Assembly (NCBI GenBank): GCA_964394435.1
Contig: CAYMXN010000001.1
Location: 43,739-107,738 of the forward strand
Source of the DNA: an uncultured Candidatus Saccharibacteria bacterium
GTDB lineage: Bacteria; Patescibacteriota; Minisyncoccia; UBA6257; 1-14-0-10-44-23
Length of the DNA stretch: 64,000 nt
Reading direction: 5' to 3'
Below the pieces are notes generated by a model. The model was given only the letters and a program-made list of their open reading frames with translations, was not told where the DNA came from and searched no databases. Positions 39,086 to 50,274 of the stretch are shown one piece after another. Numbering within the stretch: position 1 is the stretch's first letter; the number at the start of each line of letters is the position of its first letter. The position numbers and the translations under genes were made by a program.

Positions 39086-39496
39086 ATGAAGCGGTTTTTG
39101 CATTTTGTTTTTTCCCAATCACCCCTTGTTTTGTTTTTAGTATTATTCGCTTTCCTTTTTGCTCTCATACTTCTTGTTCGACTTACTTTTTTTACCGAAC
39201 AGTGGGTTATAGTAGTCCAGAAAAATGGAAGTGGACTCGTGGGGCATCTTACCGACAAGGGTGATTTTGTCCGTCTTTCTGATGTGTATGTGCTTAAAAA
39301 GCAATCTTTACCGCCTCAAGAAAGCTGGACTTCAAGTTTTATTCTCCGGGCTGATATCGATCCTGGTTTTAGCATTGAGCGATTTGATCTTGATAGCGTA
39401 CTAATTAGTCGTTCAGACATTGCATCTATTGTTCCAGTTTCTTCGGACTCACTTATCGTTAAGCGAATTGATCAAATTCTCTATTTAAGCGAGTAG
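39086..39496 (+). CDS. small membrane-anchored protein
   Basis: TM LVLFLVLFAFLFALILLV. Confidence 0.4.
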   Translation: MKRFLHFVFSQSPLVLFLVLFAFLFALILLVRLTFFTEQWVIVVQKNGSGLVGHLTDKGDFVRLSDVYVLKKQSLPPQESWTSSFILRADIDPGFSIERFDLDSVLISRSDIASIVPVSSDSLIVKRIDQILYLSE

Positions 39497-39498
39497 CT

Positions 39499-42400
39499 AT
39501 GAGTAATACAAAGACTTTTTTGTTCTACATATTGTTCGCTTTTGGCCTACTAGTTTCTTTTCCGTCTTCGGCAGCGGCAGCGATTTCATTAGTTCAATCC
39601 AATTCGACCTATCCCGGTGGTACCGGTCCGACCGGGCTCGCGTTTAGTTCCAATAATACTGCGGGAAATCTTATCGTGGTTGGGGTGCAGGGGGCTAATA
39701 ACTCGGCTGACCCGACGATTACTGATACTCGGGGTAATACGTATGTAAAAGTTGGTTCGGTTCACGGCGGAAGCGGCACTGCGTATTCGTATTTGTATTA
39801 TGCGAAGAATATTGCGGCTGGAGCGAACACAGTTACGGTTACGTTGCCGAATGGAAATGACCTTGGGTTTCATATTTCCGAGTGGAGTGGCGTAGATACT
39901 ACGTCGCCATTTAATGCTTCTTCGAGCGATGTTGCTACTTCTTCAGTTACTGTTTGGTCGACTACTAACCTTACGACAACTGCGGCTGACACGGTATTGA
40001 TAGCGTTTACAGGTACCGAAAATTCGGCCGAGACATTTACCGCTGGAACAAATTTTACTAAGCTAACCGAGCAGACTTCGCACTCTTCGATGGTACAGTA
40101 TCGCATCGTTTCTTCGGCTGGTACGTATCGTGCGACTGCTACTGTAAGCAACGCAGATAACGCGTGGGTGATGATTATGGGTGCGTTTAAGGCTGCGAAT
40201 ACAATTACTCCTACTAAGGTTGTTTTTAATCCATTTTCAGCGCGGTCAAAAACGTTCTTTTTAGACCCTCCTGCCTTTAATAGTATTAGCGGATACACTT
40301 CTTCGACTTCATTTAAGGAGCTTGCGGCAGGTGGTCAGCCGGCTGATGGTTTTTCTTCATCGACGAGTTATAAGCCGTGTGCCGGCCAGTTATGTACTTT
40401 TTTCTTGACTAATGACCCTAATCCGGCCAGCATCGCTTATCTTACTGGTTATCGGTGGTACTCAAATGCAGATGCAGTTACTACCGGATCTACTCTAGCT
40501 GCTACTAATGCTACGACGACCGCTCCAGCGCAAGGCACCCCGCTTCGCTTAAGGGCTGTTTTGCATATGCCAGTTGATTACTCAATCGGACCAACATCTT
40601 CAACTCTTCCCGTCTCTGGCATTAATAACACAGTTACTGGAGCGACAGCGTGGACGAATACGAATAATGTAACGAGTAGCGATAACTCATACGCAACGGT
40701 CGTACTTCCAAATGCTACATTGCCTAGTAATTATATTGAGGCGAAGAATTTTGGTTTTAGTTTGCCGGCGAGTTCAACGATTACCGGTATTTATGTTGAG
40801 GTTGATCGCAAAGACGATGGCTCAAAATTGAAAGATGCGTTTGTTTCTATCTTTAAGACCGACGGTTCGCCAAATCTTGGTACTGCGAGTACTTCGTTCT
40901 GGACCAGTACCGAGCAAACAGCAACGTATGGTGGTCAGTACGATCTCTGGAGCACGAGTTTTACCGCGGCTGATATTAATAGTCCTGATTTTGGTTTTGG
41001 TATTGGAGTATGGGGCGATTCAGTGGCTTGTGCTGGAGGATGTACCGCTTCAGTTGATGCGATTCGTGTCACCGTTTACTATCAGCCAGAAAATTTAAAG
41101 TTGCAGTACGCGGCTAAGTCGGGAACATGCGATACAGCTTTTTCAGGAGAGACGTATGTGGATGTGGCGACAAGTAGTGGGGCAATTCGTTTTTATAACA
41201 ATACAACTCCTAGCGATAATGATACGATTACTGCTTCTTCGAGTGATCCGACGCACGGCACTGATACTGTGGTTGCCCAGACGTATCAAGAATCAAATAA
41301 TTTTGGCGTAACGAGTACTGTTCCTGCGGGTAATGATGGACTTTGGGATTTTTCACTAGTTGATTATAGTGCGACAGCAAATACTGACTATTGTTTTCGA
41401 GTTGTTTCGAGTAGTGGGGCCACTTCGACGCCTGACTATGTTCCTGAATTTACCACTGCCGCAGCCGGTGCGGGTATAACTATCTCGGGAACTGTGTATT
41501 CAGATGCTGGAATTACAACAACTACTTCGTCCGTATCGCTTTCGATTAACGGTGGCACAAAAACAACCGTTTCTACTAATGGTAGCGGAGTCTTTACTTT
41601 TTCGAGCGTGACTACACCCAACGCTGCTGATGTGATTACTGTTTGGATGGACAATAACGGCGGAGGAAATGGAACGGGGGCGACTGTTACTCGTTATAGT
41701 GGCAGCGGTGATCTTACTGGGTTGGATATCTATAGGAGTCGAATGATTGTTCGACATGAGGATGCTGGGCCAATTATTAACACTGATATTGATGCGTGTA
41801 CAAAGACACTTGGAGCTGGTTGTGCAGATAGTGATATTCATTTCGATGTTTCGGGTGGTGCGCTGACGGTTGATAGTGATTGGGGTTTGTACGTTTGGGG
41901 AGGAGATACCTTTACTCCCGGAGGGGCGGTGACGCTTACTGCTGGTGCTGCGTCTTCGACTCCGGGCGGAGATTTGACCTGGGGTTCTTCATCTTCGACG
42001 TTAAGTATGTCGACTAACGCGCTTTCGGTGGGGGGCGATTGGCGCAATGATGTCGGTGGAACTGCTACGATAACGAGTAGTGCGGTTACGTTTACGGCTA
42101 CTCAACCGGGAATGGTGATTAATAGTGGGAACAAGAACTTTGGGAGTGTGACGTTTAATGGTGTAGGTGGAACTTGGTCGGCGTCAACCAGTCAAATGGT
42201 AATTACGGGAAGTACTGGGCTTACGATGACCGCGGGGACACTTAATAATGTGATGGGTTCGGCACCAATAACTGTAAGTGGTAATGGAAACGTAGTTGGG
42301 AGCGGAACTGGAGATGGTGTTATTAGTCTTACCTCGAGTAAGTTTATTTTCCGGCCGGGAATTTTGGTGTCGAGGAATTTTGCGTCGGGGAATACGGTTA

Positions 42401-44073
42401 ACTGGTCGTTTTACGATCTTGAATTTAACGGATCTAACGCGGGAGGAGCGTCATTTCAAAACAGCAGCGCTGCGAGCACCACCATTACTGTTTCAAACGT
42501 CTTAACGATTGGTTCTTCGACTGATTCTGGTGCGACTACGTTTGCCGCGGGCAGTTCGACTTTTGTACTTTCTGGTACGACCGGTACGCCGTTTGTAATT
42601 ACATCTAGTCCAGCTGCGACGTTTACGAGCGCTTCTTCGACATTCCAATTTTCCGGAAACTATGCGAGTGGTAATACGCAGATTCCGGGCGTTGGTTATT
42701 ACAAGTTGGTTACTAATAACGCTTCAGAGACGTATAACATTACCGGAAATGCGAGCACCTCGGACAGCTTAACTGTTACTGCCGGCACATTTGATATCGC
42801 AACGTCGAGTTTTGTTATTGGAGACGGACTAACAGTTTCTTCTGGGGCTACATTTACTGGTTCGAATAATGTCACGCTAACTGTAGCAACGAGCACTGCT
42901 TCATTTTTAGGGACGACTAACTTTACCGGTGGCACATTTTCGTTGTTCGCCCGAAATAGCGACAAGACGATTGATCTTGGGAGTGCGAGCGCAAGCACAA
43001 CCCTTAATATTATGACGATAGACTCGGTTGGTATTAGTCCGACCGTTACGTTTAGCGGTACCGGTGGTGGTTTGCGTACGCTTGGCGGACTATCGATTGG
43101 CTCAATTGGTATTGTTACGCTGGCGGTTACTACTTCGGCGCCGTTTACGATTGAAGGTAATTTTAATAATACGGTAAATGGTACGTTTAACGCTTCTTCG
43201 AGTGTAGCGCTTACCTTTAAGGGGAACTTTCTTTCGGATGGAACACTGACTACCGCGAGTAGTACGTTTATCTTTACCGGTTCGTCGGGGACGGCGACAA
43301 TTGGCGGTGCTGCTGCGTTTACATTTTATAATTTGAGCTTACTCGCTCCTACGGCAACTCGAACGTATCAGTTTACGAGCGGTAAGACGTATTATGTGAA
43401 TGGTGCGCTGAATATCGCCGGAACGAGTAGCTCGGTTAAGGCGGTTATTAGTGCGTCAACTGGTAGTGTGCAGTGGCTTATTAATCACCAGGGAACTGAA
43501 AACGTACAGTTTGCCAACATTATTGACTCTGGCTGTGATGCGTTGAGTACTAATATCAGTGTGATGTCGGCTGATAACCTTGATAATGGAAATAACGGTA
43601 CGTGTTGGCTATTTCAGACGTTAGCAATGACCCTAAGCACCACGACCATTTCATTGCCACTCACTAGTGGTAATACGTGGACAACTACCGCGAGTAACAC
43701 GCTCACCGTCACTTCTACGGTCGAGTCTGGATATAACGTAACTGCTTTTGCTTCGGGCTTATTAACCTCTGGGTTAAATACTATCAGTGATTGGCCGAGC
43801 AGTTATTCGGCACCAACAACATGGGCGGGTACGTGTAGTGGTTCGAGCCAGTGTGGATTTGGCTATAACACCGATGATGCTGATTTAACACAATTTTCAG
43901 GAAGTAAGTACGCGGCGTTTAGTAGTAGTACTCCCGGAGATATTATTGCTACTAAATCAACTAGTGCGCGTGGTGATCAAACAACTATTACGTATCGTGT
44001 TTCGGTTCCAACAAATCAAGCCGCGGGTACGTATACTAATAGTTTGAATTTTGTTTTAACACAGCAATTTTAA
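39499..44073 (+). CDS. giant (1524 aa) secreted Thr/Ser/Gly/Ala/Asn-rich surface protein with conserved about 130-aa C-terminal domain ending ...YRVSVPTNQAAGTYTNSLNFVLTQQF
   Basis: Signal peptide MSNTKTFLFYILFAFGLLVSFPSSAAAA; composition; C-terminal domain homologous to that of 45357..46610. Confidence 0.6.
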   Translation: MSNTKTFLFYILFAFGLLVSFPSSAAAAISLVQSNSTYPGGTGPTGLAFSSNNTAGNLIVVGVQGANNSADPTITDTRGNTYVKVGSVHGGSGTAYSYLYYAKNIAAGANTVTVTLPNGNDLGFHISEWSGVDTTSPFNASSSDVATSSVTVWSTTNLTTTAADTVLIAFTGTENSAETFTAGTNFTKLTEQTSHSSMVQYRIVSSAGTYRATATVSNADNAWVMIMGAFKAANTITPTKVVFNPFSARSKTFFLDPPAFNSISGYTSSTSFKELAAGGQPADGFSSSTSYKPCAGQLCTFFLTNDPNPASIAYLTGYRWYSNADAVTTGSTLAATNATTTAPAQGTPLRLRAVLHMPVDYSIGPTSSTLPVSGINNTVTGATAWTNTNNVTSSDNSYATVVLPNATLPSNYIEAKNFGFSLPASSTITGIYVEVDRKDDGSKLKDAFVSIFKTDGSPNLGTASTSFWTSTEQTATYGGQYDLWSTSFTAADINSPDFGFGIGVWGDSVACAGGCTASVDAIRVTVYYQPENLKLQYAAKSGTCDTAFSGETYVDVATSSGAIRFYNNTTPSDNDTITASSSDPTHGTDTVVAQTYQESNNFGVTSTVPAGNDGLWDFSLVDYSATANTDYCFRVVSSSGATSTPDYVPEFTTAAAGAGITISGTVYSDAGITTTTSSVSLSINGGTKTTVSTNGSGVFTFSSVTTPNAADVITVWMDNNGGGNGTGATVTRYSGSGDLTGLDIYRSRMIVRHEDAGPIINTDIDACTKTLGAGCADSDIHFDVSGGALTVDSDWGLYVWGGDTFTPGGAVTLTAGAASSTPGGDLTWGSSSSTLSMSTNALSVGGDWRNDVGGTATITSSAVTFTATQPGMVINSGNKNFGSVTFNGVGGTWSASTSQMVITGSTGLTMTAGTLNNVMGSAPITVSGNGNVVGSGTGDGVISLTSSKFIFRPGILVSRNFASGNTVNWSFYDLEFNGSNAGGASFQNSSAASTTITVSNVLTIGSSTDSGATTFAAGSSTFVLSGTTGTPFVITSSPAATFTSASSTFQFSGNYASGNTQIPGVGYYKLVTNNASETYNITGNASTSDSLTVTAGTFDIATSSFVIGDGLTVSSGATFTGSNNVTLTVATSTASFLGTTNFTGGTFSLFARNSDKTIDLGSASASTTLNIMTIDSVGISPTVTFSGTGGGLRTLGGLSIGSIGIVTLAVTTSAPFTIEGNFNNTVNGTFNASSSVALTFKGNFLSDGTLTTASSTFIFTGSSGTATIGGAAAFTFYNLSLLAPTATRTYQFTSGKTYYVNGALNIAGTSSSVKAVISASTGSVQWLINHQGTENVQFANIIDSGCDALSTNISVMSADNLDNGNNGTCWLFQTLAMTLSTTTISLPLTSGNTWTTTASNTLTVTSTVESGYNVTAFASGLLTSGLNTISDWPSSYSAPTTWAGTCSGSSQCGFGYNTDDADLTQFSGSKYAAFSSSTPGDIIATKSTSARGDQTTITYRVSVPTNQAAGTYTNSLNFVLTQQF

Positions 44074-44077
44074 CTTT

Positions 44078-45193
44078 ATGCTTAAGAATTCTCGAAAAAC
44101 TATTTACTTAATGCTTGCCTTGGTTGCTTTTATTTTTCGCTTGCCAACACCAGCTCTAGCTGAAGGATTGCAATTGTCAGTAAGTAAAGGTATTTTTGCT
44201 CTTGAGGTTTTGCCGGGGATCGCCCACGAGGATATGATTGGCGTGATCAATACTTCGGCTAGTCAGCCGTTGCCAGTTGAGGTGCAGATGTCGATGTGGA
44301 ATTTGAAATCTAATGCAGATGAGCTCGAATTTGTTTCGGTTGATGATGAGCTGAATGCGACGAAGTGGTTTTCGCTCGTTTCTCCAAAAGGGGGAGTTAG
44401 TAGACTTTCGGGTACGCGCTTTATTATTCCCGCTGATGGGTATCGTGATTTACGTTTTAGGATTCTACCCCCACAGTCTGCTCCGCTTGGAAGTTATCTT
44501 GTGGCGATGCGCTTAAAAGTTGCTGCTCCTGATTATTATTTTGCCGAAGGTGGAACGCGTCTGTATCCGGAAATTGACGTACTCTTTTTTATCAATGTAA
44601 AAGATCTTAATCTTTCTGGTTCGAGTCAGCGATACACGGCGCAGATTTCTTCATTTAGCGCAAAAGACGACAATACGATTGGAGCGCTTTCGCTGCTTGT
44701 TTCAAAGGCGAGCGCTGGAGTATTTGAGGATATTGTAAACCAATATATCGCAACTATTCGTAATACCGGTTTGTATTATTTTAAGATGAAGGGCAGTATC
44801 GAGGTGAAAAATATGTTTGGGAGAGTTGTAAAGACTATCGATTTGCCGAATAGGTACTTAATTCCAAATCGAACTCGTTCGCTTGAGATTGGTATCGAGG
44901 AGGACGCCAATGCTTCTCGGGGGATATTTTCTTCATTTGGGCGATTTTTTGCTGATCATTTTTATTTCGGTCCATATACCGCAACGTTGCTTTTGCAGGT
45001 TCCGGTTAACTCGATTGACGATACTCCCGATGCTAACTCGTTTGTTCGTGAGTCGGTGCGTTTTTGGGTGTTTCCTTGGAAATTGCTCTTGTTGGTTGTT
45101 GGGTTTGTTTTCGCAATCCGCTTCTTCTGGAAACGGGGAGGAGTGTTACGCATCAAGCGAGCGTTTTTGACGCTTATCGGAAAGGCAAAGTAG
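44078..45193 (+). CDS. CscA-like (DUF916/DUF3324-like architecture) secreted protein with C-terminal TM anchor and basic tail; partner of the giant protein
   Basis: Signal peptide; two beta-rich domains; FWVFPWKLLLLVVGFVFAIRFFWKRGG; paralog of 46616..47551. Confidence 0.45.
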   Translation: MLKNSRKTIYLMLALVAFIFRLPTPALAEGLQLSVSKGIFALEVLPGIAHEDMIGVINTSASQPLPVEVQMSMWNLKSNADELEFVSVDDELNATKWFSLVSPKGGVSRLSGTRFIIPADGYRDLRFRILPPQSAPLGSYLVAMRLKVAAPDYYFAEGGTRLYPEIDVLFFINVKDLNLSGSSQRYTAQISSFSAKDDNTIGALSLLVSKASAGVFEDIVNQYIATIRNTGLYYFKMKGSIEVKNMFGRVVKTIDLPNRYLIPNRTRSLEIGIEEDANASRGIFSSFGRFFADHFYFGPYTATLLLQVPVNSIDDTPDANSFVRESVRFWVFPWKLLLLVVGFVFAIRFFWKRGGVLRIKRAFLTLIGKAK

Positions 45194-45356
45194 CAAGCTA
45201 TATTTGACCATTTCAAATATTTATTGACTTATCCACAGTTTTGATTTGTTTTGTAAAGTAGGGATGTGAGCTTTCGTGTTATACTAAGTGTAAATAAATC
45301 GTGTGGATTTATTTTGTAGCTTTTATTACTAATTATTAATTAATTCTTTGACTATC

Positions 45357-46610
45357 ATGAAACGATTTTTAAGCCATTTGATGGGGGCGACCGGAAGTGC
45401 GACTGTCGCCACGACGCTCATCATCTCACTGCTTGTTTCGGCGAGCGGTTTTTACTTATTATCTCGCTCGGCGAGTGCGACTGCGCTTACTTCGGTCAAA
45501 GATACGCTTTCGACCTCCGCTCCAGCTACAGCGGCTAACCACACGATTCAGTTTATTACCAAGAGTAACATCGCTAACGGCGATACGATTAAGATTGAGT
45601 TTGATACACTCGGTACAACTGACCAATTTACGATTAACTCACTTCTCTTTAGTGATATCGACTTAAAGCATAACAACCAGGGTAGCTGTTCGGGCACTCT
45701 TGCTAACCAGACTATTTCTTCTGCTTTTACTACAGCATCAAGTACTTTTACGGTTGCTATTTCGAGTTCAACTGATGATATTACCTTTACGGCGACTTCG
45801 ACGGCAGCTACGTATATCCCGTCAGGTGCGTGCGTTATTATCACCATCGGAACAAACTCAACGTATCAATCAACTGGAGTAAACCAGATTGTAAATCCAG
45901 CTAAGACTGCGGCTGCTGGTGTTGCTGATGTCAACGACGTAAAGATTACGTTTACCGGTACTCCAGCTGCTGATAGTGGCTCGGCTCTAGTGGCGACTAT
46001 CGACCAAGTTACGGTCTCGGTTACCGTTGACTCGAGTCTCTCGTTCTCTATTTCTGGTGTGACTGGTGCGAGCTGTACACAAGGTACTGGTACCCAGGTG
46101 ACTACAACTTCGACTACTGTACCGTTTGGTTCTTCGTTGGTTGCTGTAAACACTTTCTATAGAGGTTGTCAGGACTTAGTGGTGAGCACAAACGCTTCGA
46201 GTGGATACGCGATCACTGCAGAAGAGAATACGAGCTTGCTTTCCGGTTCGATCACGTTAGACGACACTCGTTGCGATTTCGCCTCGGCGGAGTGTAGCGA
46301 GGTTATTGGTGCTGCATCTACTACAGCTTGGGCGACCGCAACTAACAATGGTTTTGGCTATACTTGCAGCGGCTCTTCTTGTAACTCTGCTTTTGCTACA
46401 GCAACCGAGTACAATCAGTTCTCGTGCACCGGATCTGATGCGCAATGCAATCCGGGTTCGGGAGGTGAGGCCGCACAGACACCAATTTCCACTTCGACTC
46501 CAGTAAGTGCTGATACCTCACGTATCGTCTATCGTCTCTCGGTAAGTGGTACGCAGCCAGCTGGTTCGTACAGCAACACCATTACCTATATCGCGACGCC
46601 GACCTTCTAA
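45357..46610 (+). CDS. Thr/Ser-rich surface protein (about 417 aa) sharing the C-terminal domain of the giant protein (...YRLSVSGTQPAGSYSNTITYIATPTF)
   Basis: Signal anchor; SGYAITA, TAWAT, GFGY, SGSSC, QFSC motifs align with the 39499 C-terminus; ATG 45357 (TTG 45348 alternative). Confidence 0.55.
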   Translation: MKRFLSHLMGATGSATVATTLIISLLVSASGFYLLSRSASATALTSVKDTLSTSAPATAANHTIQFITKSNIANGDTIKIEFDTLGTTDQFTINSLLFSDIDLKHNNQGSCSGTLANQTISSAFTTASSTFTVAISSSTDDITFTATSTAATYIPSGACVIITIGTNSTYQSTGVNQIVNPAKTAAAGVADVNDVKITFTGTPAADSGSALVATIDQVTVSVTVDSSLSFSISGVTGASCTQGTGTQVTTTSTTVPFGSSLVAVNTFYRGCQDLVVSTNASSGYAITAEENTSLLSGSITLDDTRCDFASAECSEVIGAASTTAWATATNNGFGYTCSGSSCNSAFATATEYNQFSCTGSDAQCNPGSGGEAAQTPISTSTPVSADTSRIVYRLSVSGTQPAGSYSNTITYIATPTF

Positions 46611-46615
46611 CAGTT

Positions 46616-47551
46616 ATGAACAAGCGCCTATCATTTAAAGCTTTCGCGATAGTATCGCTTCTCCTTTTGGGTGCCTTTATGTACGCACCAAAGGCCTCTG
46701 CTATTACGATTTCGCCACTTAACTTTGAGCTTAGTGGCAATCCGGGTGATAAGATTTCGAATGTGCTGCGTATCTACAACGATCAGGATGTTCCTATTGG
46801 TGTAAGCGTAAGCGCTCAAAACTTTACCGCTTCTGATGAAGAGGGGCGCGTCAAAATTGACCTTGATAATACCCGGGAAAATTCGTACTCATTTGCGAGC
46901 TGGATTAAGCTGTCACCTGAAGAGTTAGTAATTGAGCCAAAGTCTTTTAAGGCGATCGAGTTTACGGTTTCAGTTCCACTTAATGCAGAGCCAGGAGGAC
47001 ACTACGCCTCTATTTTAGCTGCTGTTGGGGCTACTTCAGAGACTGGTGCGACTGCGATTTCACAGCGTATTGGAGCGCTTCTTCTTTTGAATGTGAGTGG
47101 TGAGATTAAAGAGGAGATGTATCTAAAAGAGTTTTCGGTTCCGAATTATTCTGAATATGGTCCAGTTACGCTCGTAAGTCGTTTTGAAAATACCGGCAGC
47201 GTTCACTTAAAGCCTCGTGGGTTTATTACGATAACAAACATTTTCAATCAGGAGGTTGGTCGCTTCGACTTACCACAGAGCAACGTTCTCCCGGGAACGA
47301 TTCGTCGTATCGAAACTGCTTGGGGTCAGAAGTATTTGTTTGGACGGTATCAGGCGAATTTAACGACGGTGTATGGATCGACGAATGATCCAATCACGAG
47401 CGTGGTTCAGTTTTGGGTCATCCCATGGAAAGAGACTGCAGCCGTCGGATTTGCCGGCTTGATTGTACTCATCTTCTTGATTCGCCGCCGCCGCCGTATC
47501 GGCCTTGCGCTACGCGTCTTGTTTGGCTCTGAAATGCCGAAGCAGCGTTAG
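46616..47551 (+). CDS. CscA-like membrane-anchored partner protein, paralog of 44078..45193
   Basis: Signal peptide; FASWIKLSP, FWVIPWK, C-terminal TM plus RRRRR tail; collinear similarity with 44078..45193. Confidence 0.45.
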   Translation: MNKRLSFKAFAIVSLLLLGAFMYAPKASAITISPLNFELSGNPGDKISNVLRIYNDQDVPIGVSVSAQNFTASDEEGRVKIDLDNTRENSYSFASWIKLSPEELVIEPKSFKAIEFTVSVPLNAEPGGHYASILAAVGATSETGATAISQRIGALLLLNVSGEIKEEMYLKEFSVPNYSEYGPVTLVSRFENTGSVHLKPRGFITITNIFNQEVGRFDLPQSNVLPGTIRRIETAWGQKYLFGRYQANLTTVYGSTNDPITSVVQFWVIPWKETAAVGFAGLIVLIFLIRRRRRIGLALRVLFGSEMPKQR

Positions 47552-47570
47552 CGACTTATTATTTCTTTTC

Positions 47571-48509
47571 ATGCAGCATTTTCAAAGGATTGGTCGCGCG
47601 TCCGTATATTTTGCTCTGCTTATTCTTTGTATTCCGTTTTTTGGGTCTGCCGCAGAGACTCGGGATATTGGCGTTACGATTACCATTGGCGAAACCGCTA
47701 CGACAACACCTTCTGGGGGTGGTGGCGGGGGTGGAGGAGGTACGTTTGGTACGGTAACCGCTGTTACATTAAGCGGATACGTGTATCCGGGTGCGATTAT
47801 TACCTATTTGGATAATGGTGTTGTTATTGGGACTGGTGTTGCTGATAGTAGTGGGGTATTTTTGAAATCGTTTTCTGTTCCTTCAGGACTTTCGCAATTT
47901 GGTCTTTGGGCGCGCGATACGATGGATTTTATTTCACCAACTACGAATATCGGTATATATCTACAACCGTATGTTCCGGTTACTATTTCGCAGATTGTAA
48001 TCGGCCCGACTATTACTGGGAAGACTAATCTTGCGGTTGGCGAGGATCAGCTTTTGTATGGAAGTGGTTACCCTGGGGCTCAAATTAATTTGTTTAATAT
48101 TTTTGCCCCAAGTCAGACTCCGTATACAGCGATGGTGAATGCGGCCGGTCGTTGGCAGATTCGTATTCCTGCTGCTTCGTTGTTTGCTGGATCGTATACG
48201 TTTCAGGCGATGATGCAGGCTGGACTAGGAGGGAGTACGGGGTATTCGCAGGGATTTACTTTTATTGTCGGGAAGAGCGGAGAGTTGGTTCCTGGGCAGC
48301 CGCCGGTTAGCGGTGGAGGCAAGAGGTGTTTTGGTTCGGATTTTAATGGTGATGGGCGGGTTAATATTCAAGACTTCTCAATCTTTCTTTTTTACTGGCA
48401 CAAGGATTATTCACAGCGACCTCCGGCCAATGCCTGCGTAGATCGCAATGGTGATCGCAAGGTTGATATTAAGGATTTTTCGATCGTTATGCATGACTGG
48501 ACTAAGTAA
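47571..48509 (+). CDS. secreted Gly-rich protein with C-terminal type-I dockerin domain
   Basis: Signal peptide; poly-Gly; tandem Ca-binding repeats DFNGDGRVNIQDFSIF / DRNGDRKVDIKDFSIV. Confidence 0.7.
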   Translation: MQHFQRIGRASVYFALLILCIPFFGSAAETRDIGVTITIGETATTTPSGGGGGGGGGTFGTVTAVTLSGYVYPGAIITYLDNGVVIGTGVADSSGVFLKSFSVPSGLSQFGLWARDTMDFISPTTNIGIYLQPYVPVTISQIVIGPTITGKTNLAVGEDQLLYGSGYPGAQINLFNIFAPSQTPYTAMVNAAGRWQIRIPAASLFAGSYTFQAMMQAGLGGSTGYSQGFTFIVGKSGELVPGQPPVSGGGKRCFGSDFNGDGRVNIQDFSIFLFYWHKDYSQRPPANACVDRNGDRKVDIKDFSIVMHDWTK

Positions 48510-48523
48510 TATATACTCATAGT

Positions 48524-49663
48524 ATGAAGCGCAATATTCTATTTATCTCGTTGTTCTTTGTTGGTTTGTTTGGATTTTGCGCAAACAGCGTGTATGCGGC
48601 TTCTCTGTTTCTTTATCCGCAACATATCGACTTAGTTGAGGGTGAGAGTGCGAGCGTTGAGATTCGGCTTTCAACCGACGGAAAACAGATGAATGCTGCG
48701 GAAATCCATGGTGTTCTTACTGGGCTGGCGGCGAGTATTCGTAGTATTGATGATTCGCAGACTATTATTAAGCTCTTTCTTGATCGGCCTTCGACGGCGC
48801 GCAATGAGTTTGAACTCATTGGTGGCGTTCCGAATGGATTTGCGGGTGATGGTATTTTGGGAAGACTTACCGTTCGCGGTTTAGCTAAAGGAACTGCTTC
48901 GATTAGTTTTTTGCCTTCTTCGCAGGTACTTGAGAATGACGGGAATGGGACTGCGCTTCCGTTGTCTTTATCGGGTGCGACTATCGCTGTTTCTGCGCGT
49001 CCACAGGATTATATTGTCATCACGTCGCAGTCTCATCCGGATCAAGATATGTGGTATCAGCGTCGCTCAGTTCAGCTTCATTGGGATCTTAAGCCTGGGG
49101 CGAGCTATAGCTATTTAGTGAGTAGAGATATTACTGCGGTTCCTGATAATATGGCTGATAAGCCAGAGGGTGAGTTGCTTTGGTTAGGTGATATCAAATT
49201 GAGTGATATTCAGGATGGTATTACGTATTTTTCAGTTAAGGAGGTCGGGGGGAGTGTGGTGTCGAGGTATCGCTTGATGCAAGATAGTTCACTGCCGGAG
49301 TTTTCTGACGCGACTATTCGCCCAGGAATTATTGAGACGGGTGGGAAGGAGTTTCTGACTTTTTCTGCTACTGATGCAGTCTCGGGTATCGACCGATTTG
49401 AAGTGAAGGTTGATGGTCGTGATTTTGAAAGCGTGACATCGCCATATATTTTAGGTTCTGGGTACCGCACACTTATCTTGCGGGCGTACGATCGAGCGGG
49501 TAATTATGCTGAAAAAACGTTTACTGCTGCTCGCTTTGTGGTTATCTCTTGGTTCTCGGTTGTCATTCTCTTGCTCATCTTGCTTATCTTGGCGCTGCTG
49601 TATATTTTATTCCACTGGCTTAGCGATCGTCGTGAGGAGCGGAAAAAGCATATAAAAGTGTAG
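48524..49663 (+). CDS. membrane-anchored cohesin-domain protein
   Basis: Signal peptide; N-terminal about 140-aa module (LYPQHIDLVEGESASVEIRLS...ILGRLTVRGLAKGTASISF...GATIAVS) with cohesin-like pattern; C-terminal TM VVISWFSVVILLLILLILALLYILF and basic tail. Confidence 0.55.
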   Translation: MKRNILFISLFFVGLFGFCANSVYAASLFLYPQHIDLVEGESASVEIRLSTDGKQMNAAEIHGVLTGLAASIRSIDDSQTIIKLFLDRPSTARNEFELIGGVPNGFAGDGILGRLTVRGLAKGTASISFLPSSQVLENDGNGTALPLSLSGATIAVSARPQDYIVITSQSHPDQDMWYQRRSVQLHWDLKPGASYSYLVSRDITAVPDNMADKPEGELLWLGDIKLSDIQDGITYFSVKEVGGSVVSRYRLMQDSSLPEFSDATIRPGIIETGGKEFLTFSATDAVSGIDRFEVKVDGRDFESVTSPYILGSGYRTLILRAYDRAGNYAEKTFTAARFVVISWFSVVILLLILLILALLYILFHWLSDRREERKKHIKV

Positions 49664-49664
49664 A

Positions 49665-49698
49665 AACTAAAAACACCCGAACGGGTGTTTTTAGTTTC
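49665..49698. terminator. bidirectional terminator, perfect palindrome aaactaaaaacacccg-aa-cgggtgtttttagttt
   Basis: Between the convergent cohesin gene and efp. Confidence 0.8.
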
Positions 49699-50274
49699 TT
49701 ATTCCTTGGATTTTTCGAGACGTTCTACGTATGTGCCGGTAAGGGTGTTTACTTTGATGATGTCGCCGGTATTAACGAACATAGGAACTTGTACTGATGC
49801 TCCAGTTTCAAGGATCGCGGTTTTAGTGGTATTGCTGGCAGAGTTTCCTTTTTCACCTGGAGGGGTTTCTTTGATTTTAAGGTCAGCCTTGATTGGCCAG
49901 ACGAGGCTAATAACTTGATCTTTCCAGCGAATTGCTGTTACCTCGGTGTTTTGCTTAGTGAACTTGCCGCCGATGCCTGCGATATCTTCTGAAATCGAGA
50001 ATCGCTTGCTTGGGTCTTTGGCGTCGCAGAACCAGTAGGCGTCTTTATTAATATAAAGGAATTTTACCGTTTGTTTTTCGATCTCAACCTCCTCGAAGTT
50101 TTCGTTCATATGGAAGTTGCGCTGTAAAATCTTTCCGGTAATCAAGTTTTTAATTTCAGTCTGGGCGACTGGTTTGCGCTGTTGCATACGTAAAAAAGCG
50201 AAGCTAATAACTTCGTATGGCTGGCCCTCGTATACAAACAAGGTTCCTTCTTTAAGATCGTTATAAGAAAGCAT
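49699..50274 (-). CDS. efp: elongation factor P
   Basis: MLSYNDLKEGTLFVYEGQPYEV and three-domain EF-P layout. Confidence 0.85.
   Translation of the reverse strand: MLSYNDLKEGTLFVYEGQPYEVISFAFLRMQQRKPVAQTEIKNLITGKILQRNFHMNENFEEVEIEKQTVKFLYINKDAYWFCDAKDPSKRFSISEDIAGIGGKFTKQNTEVTAIRWKDQVISLVWPIKADLKIKETPPGEKGNSASNTTKTAILETGASVQVPMFVNTGDIIKVNTLTGTYVERLEKSKE

What the first reader, a model, noticed from the sequence alone, without database searches (positions are those of the whole stretch)
47571..49663. Adjacent dockerin-bearing secreted protein and membrane-anchored cohesin protein
47571..48509 ends in a textbook type-I dockerin duplicated Ca-binding segment (DFNGDGRVNIQDFSIF / DRNGDRKVDIKDFSIV). 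The next gene encodes a protein with an N-terminal cohesin-like beta-sandwich module and a C-terminal TM anchor. A dedicated cohesin-dockerin pair in a reduced-genome, non-cellulolytic organism implies cellulosome-independent high-affinity surface display of the Gly-rich dockerin protein, possibly for host or partner attachment.
Basis: partly seen in the sequence, partly recalled or inferred. Interest (0 to 1): 0.7.

Follow-up and report, generated by a model that had tools for sequence, protein, structure and literature searches.

The report
Dockerin–cohesin pair ending a pilus operon
Two neighbouring genes of an ultra-small (CPR) bacterium really do encode a secreted dockerin protein and a membrane-anchored cohesin protein, and they close a pilus operon, so this plug-and-socket pair from cellulose-degrading machines probably fastens the pilus base to the cell membrane.

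Summary

The 64-kb window holds exactly one dockerin and one cohesin. In 30 related Patescibacteria loci, a dockerin gene always sits directly upstream of 1-5 cohesin-TM genes.

The pair forms the last two genes of a six-gene operon: giant tip protein, TM-anchored chaperone, pilin, chaperone, dockerin protein, cohesin protein. This operon is remotely related to the CPR "Pam" donor-strand pilus described in 2026.

The dockerin protein carries no adhesin domain. It consists of an unfolded N-terminal beta-strand resembling the pilin donor strand, a Gly9 linker, two Ig domains and the dockerin. In a Kerfeldbacteria locus, its homologue has a full pilin N-domain and donor strand, with Ig-Ig-dockerin in place of the acceptor domain.

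Best reading, inferred and not shown: it is a chain-terminating adaptor that caps the pilus and docks it onto the membrane cohesin. No paper in the searched library links cohesin or dockerin to CPR pili, so I rate this a new variant of known kinds.

The parts
39086..39496 (+). Small 136-aa protein with an N-terminal TM segment; first conserved gene of the module
   Evidence: A profile built from this protein and its L004 counterpart also finds it just upstream of the dockerin gene in the loci L016 and L023, where no pilus genes were detected. No Pfam or NCBIfam family matches.
39499..44073 (+). Giant 1524-aa secreted protein, candidate pilus tip or adhesin; its C-terminal ~125 aa resemble the pilin C-domain
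   Evidence: BLASTP of the last 190 aa against the pilin gives E 2e-6, with the match covering about the last 125 residues, and both share the ending ...AGxYxNxxxxxxTxxF. Giant proteins with the same pilin-like C-terminus stand first in L004, L005, L009, L013, L015, L019 and L027. No Pfam hit.
44078..45193 (+). Chaperone-like protein A (371 aa): signal peptide plus C-terminal TM helix
   Evidence: The sequence shows an N-terminal hydrophobic leader and a C-terminal WKLLLLVVGFVFAIRFFWKRGG. It is a paralogue of chaperone-like protein B (cross-hits between the two profiles, E about 1e-12). The architecture matches PamC/PamD as described in 10.64898/2026.03.03.709456. Its fold was not predicted here.
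45348..46610 (+). Pilin (420 aa; a public gene call starts 9 nt later and gives 417 aa): N-domain, linker/donor strand, Pam-type C-domain
   Evidence: NCBIfam CPR_Pam_pilin_C matches aa 254-420 with E 5.2e-7, at 29.9 bits against a cut-off of 55. Of 20 family members, 11 hit the same model and no other. The protein has ten Cys.
46002..46031 (+). Presumed pilin donor (linker) strand DQVTVSVTVD, aa 219-228
   Evidence: It lies just before the C-domain. V221, V223 and S224 are among the few nearly invariant residues of the family. The Pam paper reports that the donated linker is among the most conserved pilin regions. The assignment is by analogy and was not modelled.
46616..47551 (+). Chaperone-like protein B (311 aa): signal peptide plus C-terminal TM helix
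   Evidence: Pfam WxLIP_PGBD (DUF916) matches with E 1.9e-5 at 25.1 bits, below the cut-off of 27.3. The C-terminus reads WKETAAVGFAGLIVLIFLIRRRRR. A chaperone-B-type gene lies immediately upstream of the dockerin gene in at least 13 loci.
47571..48509 (+). Dockerin protein (312 aa): signal peptide, N-terminal strand, Gly9 linker, two bacterial Ig domains, dockerin
   Evidence: Pfam Dockerin_1 and Big_6 score above their cut-offs, and Big_13 and Ca_tandemer score below theirs. In the AF2 model, aa 61-233 form two confident Ig domains, similar to Bap and SiiE stalk domains.
47661..47693 (+). N-terminal beta-strand RDIGVTITIGE (aa 31-41), candidate donor strand, followed by the G9 run at 47715-47741
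   Evidence: AF2 leaves aa 19-59 below pLDDT 50 and outside any domain. A strand plus Pro/Gly linker at this position is conserved in the dockerin proteins that accompany pilus genes. Across 8 locus groups the strand covaries with the pilin donor strand of the same locus: 0.28% of permutations reach the observed score. The window's own pair is not the best match in its row.
48336..48506 (+). Dockerin module (aa 256-312): Ca loops at 48339-48374 and 48441-48476, Cys253 and Cys289 flanking
   Evidence: Searches give the family match and the loop positions. AF2 predicts two helices at aa 266-276 and 300-311, but pLDDT is only 43-62.
48524..49663 (+). Cohesin anchor protein (379 aa): signal peptide 1-25, cohesin 26-158, two Ig/FnIII-like domains about 160-253 and 259-334, TM helix from aa 343, basic tail
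48599..48997 (+). Cohesin module
49662..49699 (.). Perfect 17-bp hairpin, a bidirectional terminator shared with the convergent efp gene; marks the operon end

Best explanation
The two genes encode a matched, non-cellulosomal cohesin-dockerin pair that forms the membrane-proximal end of a Pam-like donor-strand pilus.

The cohesin protein is a type-I membrane protein. It holds a cohesin socket outside the cell on a stalk of two Ig/FnIII-like domains.

The dockerin protein is an adaptor. Its free N-terminal beta-strand, on a flexible Gly9 tether, is proposed to fill the open groove of the last pilin's C-domain, as a pilin's own donor strand would. Because the adaptor has no acceptor domain of its own, this would stop chain growth. 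Its C-terminal Ca-dependent dockerin then plugs into the cohesin and fastens the finished fibre non-covalently to the membrane. The fibre would consist of the 1524-aa tip protein and a run of 420-aa pilins.

Functionally this would split, over two proteins, the job that the Pam paper predicts for PamR in Ca. Mycosynbacter. It would be analogous to the PapH terminator of chaperone-usher pili.

Shown here: the domain identities, the membrane topology signals, the operon structure, and conservation of the gene pair. Inferred: cohesin-dockerin binding, donor-strand insertion, and the terminator/anchor role.

For: (2) The pair is dedicated. There is one dockerin and one cohesin in 64 kb. All 30 loci with a dockerin ORF have it directly upstream of 1-5 cohesin-TM genes.

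(3) The operon context is clear. Gaps between genes are 4, 154, 5, 19 and 14 nt, with a perfect terminator straight after the cohesin gene. The same six-gene order occurs in L004 and L005, where the cohesin protein is 42% and 36% identical. Chaperone and/or pilin-C-domain genes lie next to the pair in about 19 of the 30 loci.

(4) The pilin is related to the Pam pilin C-domain. The chaperone-like proteins have the signal-peptide plus C-terminal-TM architecture described for PamC/PamD.

(5) The dockerin protein has no binding or catalytic domain, only two Ig stalk domains. Its N-terminal strand and Gly9 linker are unfolded in the monomer model.

(6) In L019 (Kerfeldbacteria), the dockerin protein starts with a complete pilin N-domain that is 50% identical to the locus' own pilins (E 4e-49). 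The donor strand follows (NDHVVISATVSS against DDQVVVSAVVDV). Then come Big_6, Big_13 and Dockerin_1 where the acceptor C-domain should be. That is a natural donate-only subunit.

(7) Dockerin-protein N-strands match the donor strand of their own locus' pilin better than those of other loci. The diagonal sum is 187 against 150.5 +/- 11.4, and 0.28% of 40,320 permutations reach it. L013 and L015 are striking: QVVITATVP and QVTVTATVP against QVSVSATVP, with 0 of 500 shuffles reaching the score.

(8) The N-module of the L023 dockerin protein is homologous to the N-module of a pilin-like ORF in L034 (E 3e-7).

(9) The Pam paper predicts that a TM-anchored protein (PamR) ends and anchors the pilus through an N-terminal strand, and it notes that the pili detach easily.
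Against: Neither cohesin-dockerin binding nor strand insertion has been tested.

For the window itself, the N-strand's similarity to its own pilin strand is only generic: an alternating V/T/I pattern, scoring 17, which is not the row maximum. In one search the best 9-mer match fell on the donor strand in only 5 of 10 loci.

I chose the strand segments used in the permutation test by eye.

Ten of the 30 dockerin-cohesin loci show no pilus genes within the flanks held. The pair can therefore exist without an adjacent pilus, and some dockerin proteins there carry large unrelated N-terminal parts of 500-800 aa.

Many loci have 2-5 cohesin paralogues for a single dockerin, which a simple 1:1 anchor does not explain.

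Matches to Pam family models are all below the curated cut-offs. The folds of the pilin and the chaperones were not predicted here.

The dockerin part of the model has low confidence.
Confidence: 0.55

Rival explanations
1. Stand-alone surface display. The cohesin protein anchors the dockerin protein on the cell surface as an independent stalk or adhesin, or as an envelope component. It shares an operon with the pilus genes only because surface-protein genes cluster together.
For: The pair occurs without detectable pilus genes in 10 of 30 loci, with varied cargo N-termini. Bacterial Ig domains like those in the dockerin protein are found in adhesins such as Bap and SiiE. A dockerin-domain protein is essential in the cultured Saccharibacterium Southlakia, where the authors suggested it targets glycans (PMC10633639).
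Against: The window's dockerin protein has no recognisable ligand-binding domain. Its conserved free N-terminal strand plus flexible linker has no role in this model. The L019 chimera of pilin N-domain, donor strand and dockerin ties the family directly to pilin chemistry. The strict order chaperone, then dockerin, then cohesin, with 5-19 nt gaps, is kept even where the cohesin protein is only 36-42% identical.
Confidence: 0.25
2. Assembly platform rather than final anchor. The cohesin-TM protein, and its paralogues in other loci, would organise the assembly site. The dockerin protein would be a transient assembly factor or initiator that recruits chaperone-pilin complexes, standing in for the missing usher.
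For: The Pam paper found no dedicated trans-envelope assembly machinery. Loci with 2-5 tandem cohesin-TM paralogues suggest a multi-component membrane platform. Some paralogues carry extra TM segments and coiled coils.
Against: A subunit that can donate a strand but lacks an acceptor domain is by construction a chain end, not a catalyst. Growth from the base, as the Pam model describes, puts such a subunit last. Nothing here tests kinetics or stoichiometry.
Confidence: 0.12
3. The dockerin-like module does not bind the neighbouring cohesin. It would instead be a generic Ca-binding EF-hand-like or glycan/cell-wall-binding tail, and the cohesin-like sandwich would bind something else.
For: From my own knowledge, many non-cellulosomal dockerin-like and cohesin-like modules have no demonstrated partner. 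The window's cohesin has no direct Pfam hit. The dockerin model has low confidence.
Confidence: 0.06

Closest known systems
Type I cohesin-dockerin modules of cellulosomes (e.g. C. thermocellum 1ohz, C. cellulolyticum 2vn5, C. acetobutylicum 6kgc)
   Different: There is no scaffoldin with repeated cohesins, no carbohydrate-binding module and no glycoside hydrolase cargo. The cohesin sits alone on a protein with a C-terminal TM helix, rather than on an SLH- or sortase-anchored scaffoldin. The residues after the loops are I-Q/I-K then DFSI, not the Ser-Thr pair. The host is a CPR bacterium.
Non-cellulosomal cohesin/dockerin systems (Archaeoglobus fulgidus cohesin 2xdh; Clostridium perfringens GH84C/GH33 cohesins 2w1n, 2vo8)
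   Same: These show cohesin-dockerin used outside cellulose degradation. 2xdh and 2w1n (cohesin plus FnIII) are among the best structural matches.
   Different: From my own knowledge, those systems assemble enzymes or toxins, or their function is unknown. None is linked to a pilus operon or sits on a single-pass membrane anchor next to its partner gene.
Pam pilus system of Ca. Mycosynbacter amalyticus (Troman et al., bioRxiv 10.64898/2026.03.03.709456)
   Same: It is a CPR-specific pilus with donor-strand pilins, TM-anchored PapD-like chaperones, a tip subunit and a TM-anchored terminator in one operon. The window's pilin family hits the Pam pilin C-domain model.
   Different: All matches are below the curated cut-offs. 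The lineage here is Parcubacteria-like (Colwell-, Uhr-, Kerfeldbacteria relatives), not Saccharimonadia or Microgenomatia. The tip is a 1524-aa giant protein rather than the single-domain PamT. The predicted one-piece anchor PamR (N-strand, two FnIII domains, TM helix) is replaced here by two proteins joined through dockerin and cohesin. The paper mentions neither module.
PapH-type terminator/anchor subunits of chaperone-usher pili
   Same: Both follow the same logic: a final subunit donates a strand to the last pilin but cannot accept one, which ends growth and marks the base.
   Different: From my own knowledge, PapH is a complete pilin domain with a blocked groove, held by an outer-membrane usher. 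The adaptor proposed here has no pilin acceptor domain at all and is held by a cohesin-dockerin link to the cytoplasmic membrane.
WxL / DUF916 (WxLIP) cell-surface clusters of Firmicutes
   Same: Chaperone-like protein B hits Pfam WxLIP_PGBD (DUF916) at E 1.9e-5. From my own knowledge, those clusters also combine secreted surface proteins with TM-anchored DUF916 proteins.
   Different: The hit is below the cut-off and there is no WxL domain hit. From my own knowledge, those clusters have no cohesin or dockerin.

Membership tests
Dockerin type I (Pfam PF00404) | Profile match at or above the curated gathering score | tested here: met
   The match scores 26.7 bits against a cut-off of 22.9, with E 6.6e-6, over aa 257-307.
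Dockerin type I (Pfam PF00404) | Two tandem ~22-residue segments, each a 12-residue Ca-binding loop (D/N at positions 1, 3, 5, 9, 12) followed by a helix | tested here: met
   The loops are DFNGDGRVNIQD (aa 257-268) and DRNGDRKVDIKD (aa 291-302), and the two repeats share 12 of 22 residues. AF2 places helices at aa 266-276 and 300-311, but at low pLDDT.
Dockerin type I (Pfam PF00404) | Ca2+-dependent folding and binding to a cohesin | not testable with these tools
This needs ITC or pull-down with and without EDTA.
Cohesin (Pfam PF00963) | Profile match to the family model | tested here: inconclusive
   The window protein has no hit at E <= 1. Six of its 23 homologues hit PF00963 (best E 1.9e-8), and one homologue is annotated by NCBI as a cohesin domain-containing protein.
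Cohesin (Pfam PF00963) | Nine-stranded beta-sandwich (jelly-roll) cohesin fold | tested here: met
Cohesin (Pfam PF00963) | Binds a dockerin partner | not testable with these tools
   This is only inferred, from the strict adjacency of the genes in 30 loci.
Cellulosome | Scaffoldin with multiple cohesins and a carbohydrate-binding module, plus dockerin-bearing carbohydrate-active enzymes | tested here: not met
   The anchor protein has a single cohesin. The dockerin protein has only Ig domains, with no glycoside hydrolase or carbohydrate-binding module hit. There is no other dockerin or cohesin in the window.
Pam pilus system (NCBIfam NF058581 / Troman et al. 2026) | [quoted passage not shown] | tested here: inconclusive
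   NF058581 matches with E 5.2e-7, but at 29.9 bits against a cut-off of 55. Of 20 family members, 11 hit it and nothing else, with a best E of 2.5e-10. The fold was not predicted.
Pam pilus system (NCBIfam NF058581 / Troman et al. 2026) | Membrane-anchored PapD/FimC-like chaperones (PamC/PamD) in the operon | tested here: inconclusive
   Two paralogous proteins have a signal peptide and a C-terminal TM helix. One has a sub-threshold WxLIP_PGBD hit. Their fold was not predicted because no structure jobs remained.
Pam pilus system (NCBIfam NF058581 / Troman et al. 2026) | PamR-type one-piece anchor (N-terminal strand, two FnIII domains, TM helix) | tested here: not met
   No single protein combines these features. 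The strand is on the dockerin protein, and the two Ig/FnIII-like domains plus the TM helix are on the cohesin protein. I could not obtain the PamR sequence, so homology of the stalk domains is untested.
Pam pilus system (NCBIfam NF058581 / Troman et al. 2026) | Assembly by donor-strand exchange | not testable with these tools
   This needs complex modelling or structure determination.

The most novel reading that the evidence does not exclude
[quoted passage not shown] A donate-only adaptor, made of a pilin donor strand (or a whole pilin N-domain), an Ig stalk and a dockerin, would terminate a chaperone-assembled Pam-like pilus and plug it into a membrane-anchored cohesin. That would be a non-covalent, Ca-dependent and possibly force-resistant or releasable anchor. 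It would be a third solution alongside usher retention in Gram-negatives and sortase linkage in Gram-positives. It would also be the first physiological role for cohesin-dockerin in filament anchoring.
Probability: 0.45. Interest if true: 0.85.

Novelty: new variant of a known kind. Interest (0 to 1): 0.68.

Why it matters
CPR bacteria live attached to other cells, yet how they hold their surface fibres is unknown. They lack an outer membrane, no usher has been identified for these pili, and the window shows no sortase-type anchoring. The only described CPR donor-strand pilus (Pam, 2026) has a predicted but untested anchor.

The cohesin-TM architecture is very common. A profile of this family finds 5,525 clusters at 50% identity with E <= 1e-30 in public data. 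A role in pilus anchoring would therefore explain thousands of 'hypothetical' proteins.

It would also give cohesin-dockerin, known for very high affinity and mechanical strength, a new biological job.

It makes concrete predictions that need no cultivation. Recombinant modules should bind in a Ca-dependent way. The N-strand peptide should complement the pilin C-domain.

Finally, it may bear on why a dockerin-domain protein is essential in the cultured epibiont Southlakia (PMC10633639).

Tried and rejected
- Complex modelling. I built a paired alignment of fusions (pilin C-domain, dockerin protein, cohesin) from 10 loci.
- Related loci. The search for related loci with the wide alignment A1 failed for lack of a conserved stretch. 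The narrower alignment A2 worked.
- Structure library. The afdb50 library was unavailable.
- Strand matching. The first best-9-mer script timed out. The rerun gave a mixed result: the top match fell on the donor strand in only 5 of 10 loci, and not in the window itself.
- Other families. NCBIfam and Pfam gave nothing for the giant protein, the 136-aa protein or the 176-aa protein.
- PDB by sequence. Searching the PDB with the cohesin profile gave only marginal cohesin hits (E 0.017-0.5), so the fold comparison was needed.
- RNA and taxonomy. Rfam and tRNA scans found only two tRNAs and no rRNA to fix the taxonomy.
- Protein names. Cluster look-ups gave no informative names.
- Literature. Searches found no paper linking cohesin or dockerin to CPR pili.
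- Cellulosome reading. Rejected, because there are no enzymes, no carbohydrate-binding module and only a single cohesin.
- Sortase-type anchoring. Rejected, because the two proteins show no LPXTG motif.
- PamR comparison. I could not test whether the cohesin protein's two stalk domains are homologous to PamR, because that sequence was out of reach.
Full report
**1. What is at the coordinates**

The + strand of 39086-49663 carries a tight row of genes:
- a 136-aa protein with a TM segment (39086-39496);
- a 1524-aa secreted giant protein (39499-44073);
- a 371-aa protein with a signal peptide and a C-terminal TM helix (44078-45193);
- a 420-aa Ser/Thr-rich protein (45348-46610);
- a 311-aa paralogue of the 371-aa protein (46616-47551);
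- the 312-aa dockerin protein (47571-48509);
- the 379-aa cohesin protein (48524-49663).

From the giant gene onwards the gaps are 4, about 154, 5, 19 and 14 nt. A perfect 17-bp hairpin at 49662-49699 lies exactly between the cohesin gene and the convergent efp gene. The two genes of the finding are therefore the last genes of an operon. The rest of the window is housekeeping (mnmA, comEC, aspS and so on). The same genes occur on CPR/Patescibacteria MAG contigs.

**2. The dockerin**

Pfam Dockerin_1 matches aa 257-307 at 26.7 bits, above the curated cut-off of 22.9. Each loop is followed by DFSI, and the two 22-residue repeats share 12 identities. Cys253 and Cys289 flank the loops. Homologues also carry a Cys pair here, which suggests a disulphide; this is an inference.

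The AF2 model has mean pLDDT 69 from a 9-sequence alignment. It shows two confident Ig domains at aa 61-233. It places two helices where the dockerin helices should be, but only at pLDDT 43-62. It gives no structure for aa 19-59. Foldseek matches the Ig pair to stalk domains of Bap, SiiE and similar adhesins. There is no enzyme, lectin or carbohydrate-binding module.

**3. The cohesin**

The protein itself has no Pfam Cohesin hit. Its family does: 6 of 23 homologues hit PF00963 (best E 1.9e-8), and NCBI names one of them a cohesin domain-containing protein.

The AF2 model (pLDDT 88) contains the following:
- a leader helix;
- a beta-sandwich at aa 26-157;
- two further sandwiches at about aa 160-253 and 259-334;
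- a long helix at aa 343-377.

**4. More than chance, and a dedicated pair**

Profiles I built from the two families find exactly one dockerin and one cohesin among all ORFs of the 64-kb window.

I fetched 39 related loci from species-representative genomes. Nearly all are Patescibacteria MAGs: Colwell-, Jorgensen-, Brenner-, Kerfeld-, Magasanikii-bacteria and Paceibacterota. Scanning them with iterated profiles gave two results:
- All 30 loci with a dockerin ORF have it immediately upstream of one to five tandem cohesin-TM genes.
- Only two loci with enough upstream sequence lack a dockerin gene.

All 30 dockerins have the same design, ending in FSI(L/M)xxW(T/S)G.

The cohesin-TM architecture is very common. 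The family profile finds 30,735 cluster representatives at E <= 1e-3 and 5,525 at E <= 1e-30. Most of the listed ones are single full-length matches of 370-700 aa.

**5.

The 420-aa protein hits NCBIfam CPR_Pam_pilin_C over aa 254-420 (E 5.2e-7, below the cut-off). In its family, 11 of 20 members hit that model and nothing else. The last 190 aa of the giant protein, over about 125 residues, resemble the same C-domain (E 2e-6). The 311-aa protein has a sub-threshold WxLIP_PGBD/DUF916 hit. Both it and its 371-aa paralogue have a signal peptide and a C-terminal TM helix.

This is the parts list of the Pam pilus described in June 2026 for Ca. Mycosynbacter amalyticus (bioRxiv 10.64898/2026.03.03.709456). 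That system has these components:
- pilins made of an N-domain, a donated linker strand and a truncated Ig-like C-domain;
- membrane-anchored PapD-like chaperones;
- a tip subunit that only accepts a strand;
- PamR, a TM-anchored two-FnIII protein, which is a prediction in that paper. Its extra N-terminal strand is proposed to fill the last pilin and tether the fibre.

That paper never mentions dockerin or cohesin. It reports Pam mainly in Saccharimonadia and Microgenomatia.

The six-gene order of the window is kept in L004 and L005, where the cohesin protein is 42% and 36% identical. Chaperone and/or pilin-C-domain genes flank the pair in about 19 of the 30 loci.

**6. What the dockerin protein looks like in that light**

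After its signal peptide it starts with RDIGVTITIGE, an alternating beta-strand. The sequence continues with TATTTPS and a run of nine Gly before the first Ig domain. AF2 leaves this part unfolded. The dockerin proteins in pilus-type loci all have such a strand plus a Pro/Gly linker.

The presumed pilin donor strand of the window is DQVTVSVTVD (aa 219-228). It holds three of the few nearly invariant residues of the pilin family.

Across eight independent locus groups, the dockerin proteins' N-strands match the donor strand of their own locus' pilin better than those of other loci. The diagonal sum is 187 against 150.5 +/- 11.4, and 0.28% of all 40,320 permutations reach it. The clearest cases are L013 and L015: QVVITATVP and QVTVTATVP against QVSVSATVP.

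Three caveats apply. For the window itself the match is only generic. I chose the segments by eye. Shared composition within a genome could also contribute.

The strongest single piece of evidence is L019 (Kerfeldbacteria). Its dockerin protein begins with a whole pilin N-domain that is 50% identical to the two pilins of the same locus (E 4e-49). It continues with the donor strand (NDHVVISATVSS against DDQVVVSAVVDV). Then, where the acceptor C-domain should be, it has a Pro-rich linker, Big_6, Big_13 and Dockerin_1 (31.8 bits). A subunit that can donate a strand but cannot accept one is by construction a chain end.

A third cargo type supports the same theme. The N-module of the L023 dockerin protein is homologous to the N-module of a pilin-like ORF beside a chaperone gene in L034 (E 3e-7).

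**7. Mechanism proposed**

Shown here:
- the domain identities;
- the topology signals;
- the operon boundaries;
- the conserved pairing of the genes.

Inferred from the established behaviour of cohesin-dockerin modules and of donor-strand pili:
- The giant protein starts the fibre as a tip that only accepts a strand.
- The 420-aa pilins add on by donating their strands, helped by the two membrane-anchored chaperones.
- The dockerin protein donates its N-terminal strand to the last pilin and so stops growth.
- Its dockerin binds the cohesin that the 379-aa protein holds above the membrane on a two-domain stalk.

This would divide the predicted role of PamR between two proteins joined non-covalently. 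That fits the remark that Pam pili detach easily.

I put this at about 0.55. The existence of a real, matched, membrane-tethering cohesin-dockerin pair I put at about 0.9.

**8. Rivals**

This is supported by 10 loci in which no pilus genes were detected and the cargo varies. The missing ligand-binding domain, the conserved free strand and the L019 chimera weigh against it.

(b) An assembly platform or initiator role. This is suggested by the 2-5 cohesin paralogues in many loci.

(c) No binding between the two modules. This is unlikely given 30 of 30 adjacency.

**9. Comparison and novelty**

The modules belong to known families. Non-cellulosomal cohesin-dockerin pairs are known, and a donor-strand pilus in CPR was published in 2026. 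Wang et al. 2023 listed an essential dockerin-domain protein in a Saccharibacterium and guessed that it binds glycans (PMC10633639).

I found no paper in the searched library that links cohesin or dockerin to CPR pili or to pilus anchoring. I therefore rate this a new variant of known kinds. It is not a cellulosome: the membership test fails on enzymes, carbohydrate-binding module and multi-cohesin scaffoldin. It is only a remote, sub-threshold relative of the Pam system, with a different anchor.

**10. Limits**

- No complex could be modelled.
- The pilin and chaperone folds were not predicted.
- Only 64 kb of the genome was visible, so other dockerins elsewhere in it cannot be excluded.

Noticed in passing
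L019:7441-8775 (Candidatus Kerfeldbacteria, CAVSWO010000002.1): This is a natural chimera. It has a full pilin N-domain and donor strand, 50% identical to the two pilins of the same locus. These are followed by two Ig domains and a dockerin in place of the pilin acceptor C-domain.
   Followed up: yes
window 39499-44073: A 1524-aa secreted protein rich in Ser, Thr, Gly and Asn has no family hit at all. Its C-terminal ~125 aa resemble the pilin C-domain. It is probably the pilus tip or adhesin, and its N-terminal ~1300 aa are unexplained.
   Followed up: partly
window 39086-39496; also L004:2080-2496, L016:2198-2659, L023:4446-4859: A small (about 136 aa) protein with an N-terminal TM segment heads the module. 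It appears both in pilus-type loci and in loci that show only small protein, dockerin and cohesin genes. Its function is unknown. Its presence suggests the pilus genes sit inside an older small-dockerin-cohesin cassette, or were lost from one.
   Followed up: partly
L004:11141-13195, L005:11397-13451, and L009-L011, L018: Related loci carry 2-5 tandem cohesin-TM paralogues after the single dockerin gene. These include a conserved ~684-aa form with extra TM segments and a coiled-coil tail. The window and its closest relative L007 have only one cohesin gene, followed directly by the terminator.
   Followed up: partly
window 49662-49699: A perfect 17-bp stem with a 4-nt loop has T-runs on both strands. 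It would serve as a bidirectional terminator for the pilus operon and the convergent efp gene.
   Followed up: yes
L006, L016, L020, L023, L025 (dockerin proteins); L034:15553-16341: A second class of dockerin proteins starts with a ~55-aa module of repeated S-x-N-F/Y-x-(I/L) motifs ending in GFLYFP. The same module heads a pilin-like ORF in L034. L026, L028, L029, L031 and L034 have still other, larger N-terminal parts of 350-800 aa.
   Followed up: partly
L013, L014, L024, L028: These contigs are deposited as 'uncultured Gammaproteobacteria bacterium'. They carry the same cassette as Patescibacteria MAGs: L013 has the same gene order as L015 and near-identical key motifs. The taxonomic labels of these third-party assemblies look unreliable.
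   Followed up: no
window 48327-48329 and 48435-48437 (Cys253, Cys289 of the dockerin protein): A Cys pair brackets the two Ca loops. It recurs, at slightly shifted positions, in most related dockerins. It may be a disulphide clasp. The pilin has ten Cys, in line with the disulphide-rich Pam pilins.
   Followed up: no
window 48524-49663, aa 136-143 and 100-108: The most conserved motifs of the cohesin module across the family are GGxPNGFxGDG and (V/I)LxNDGxGT.
   Followed up: no
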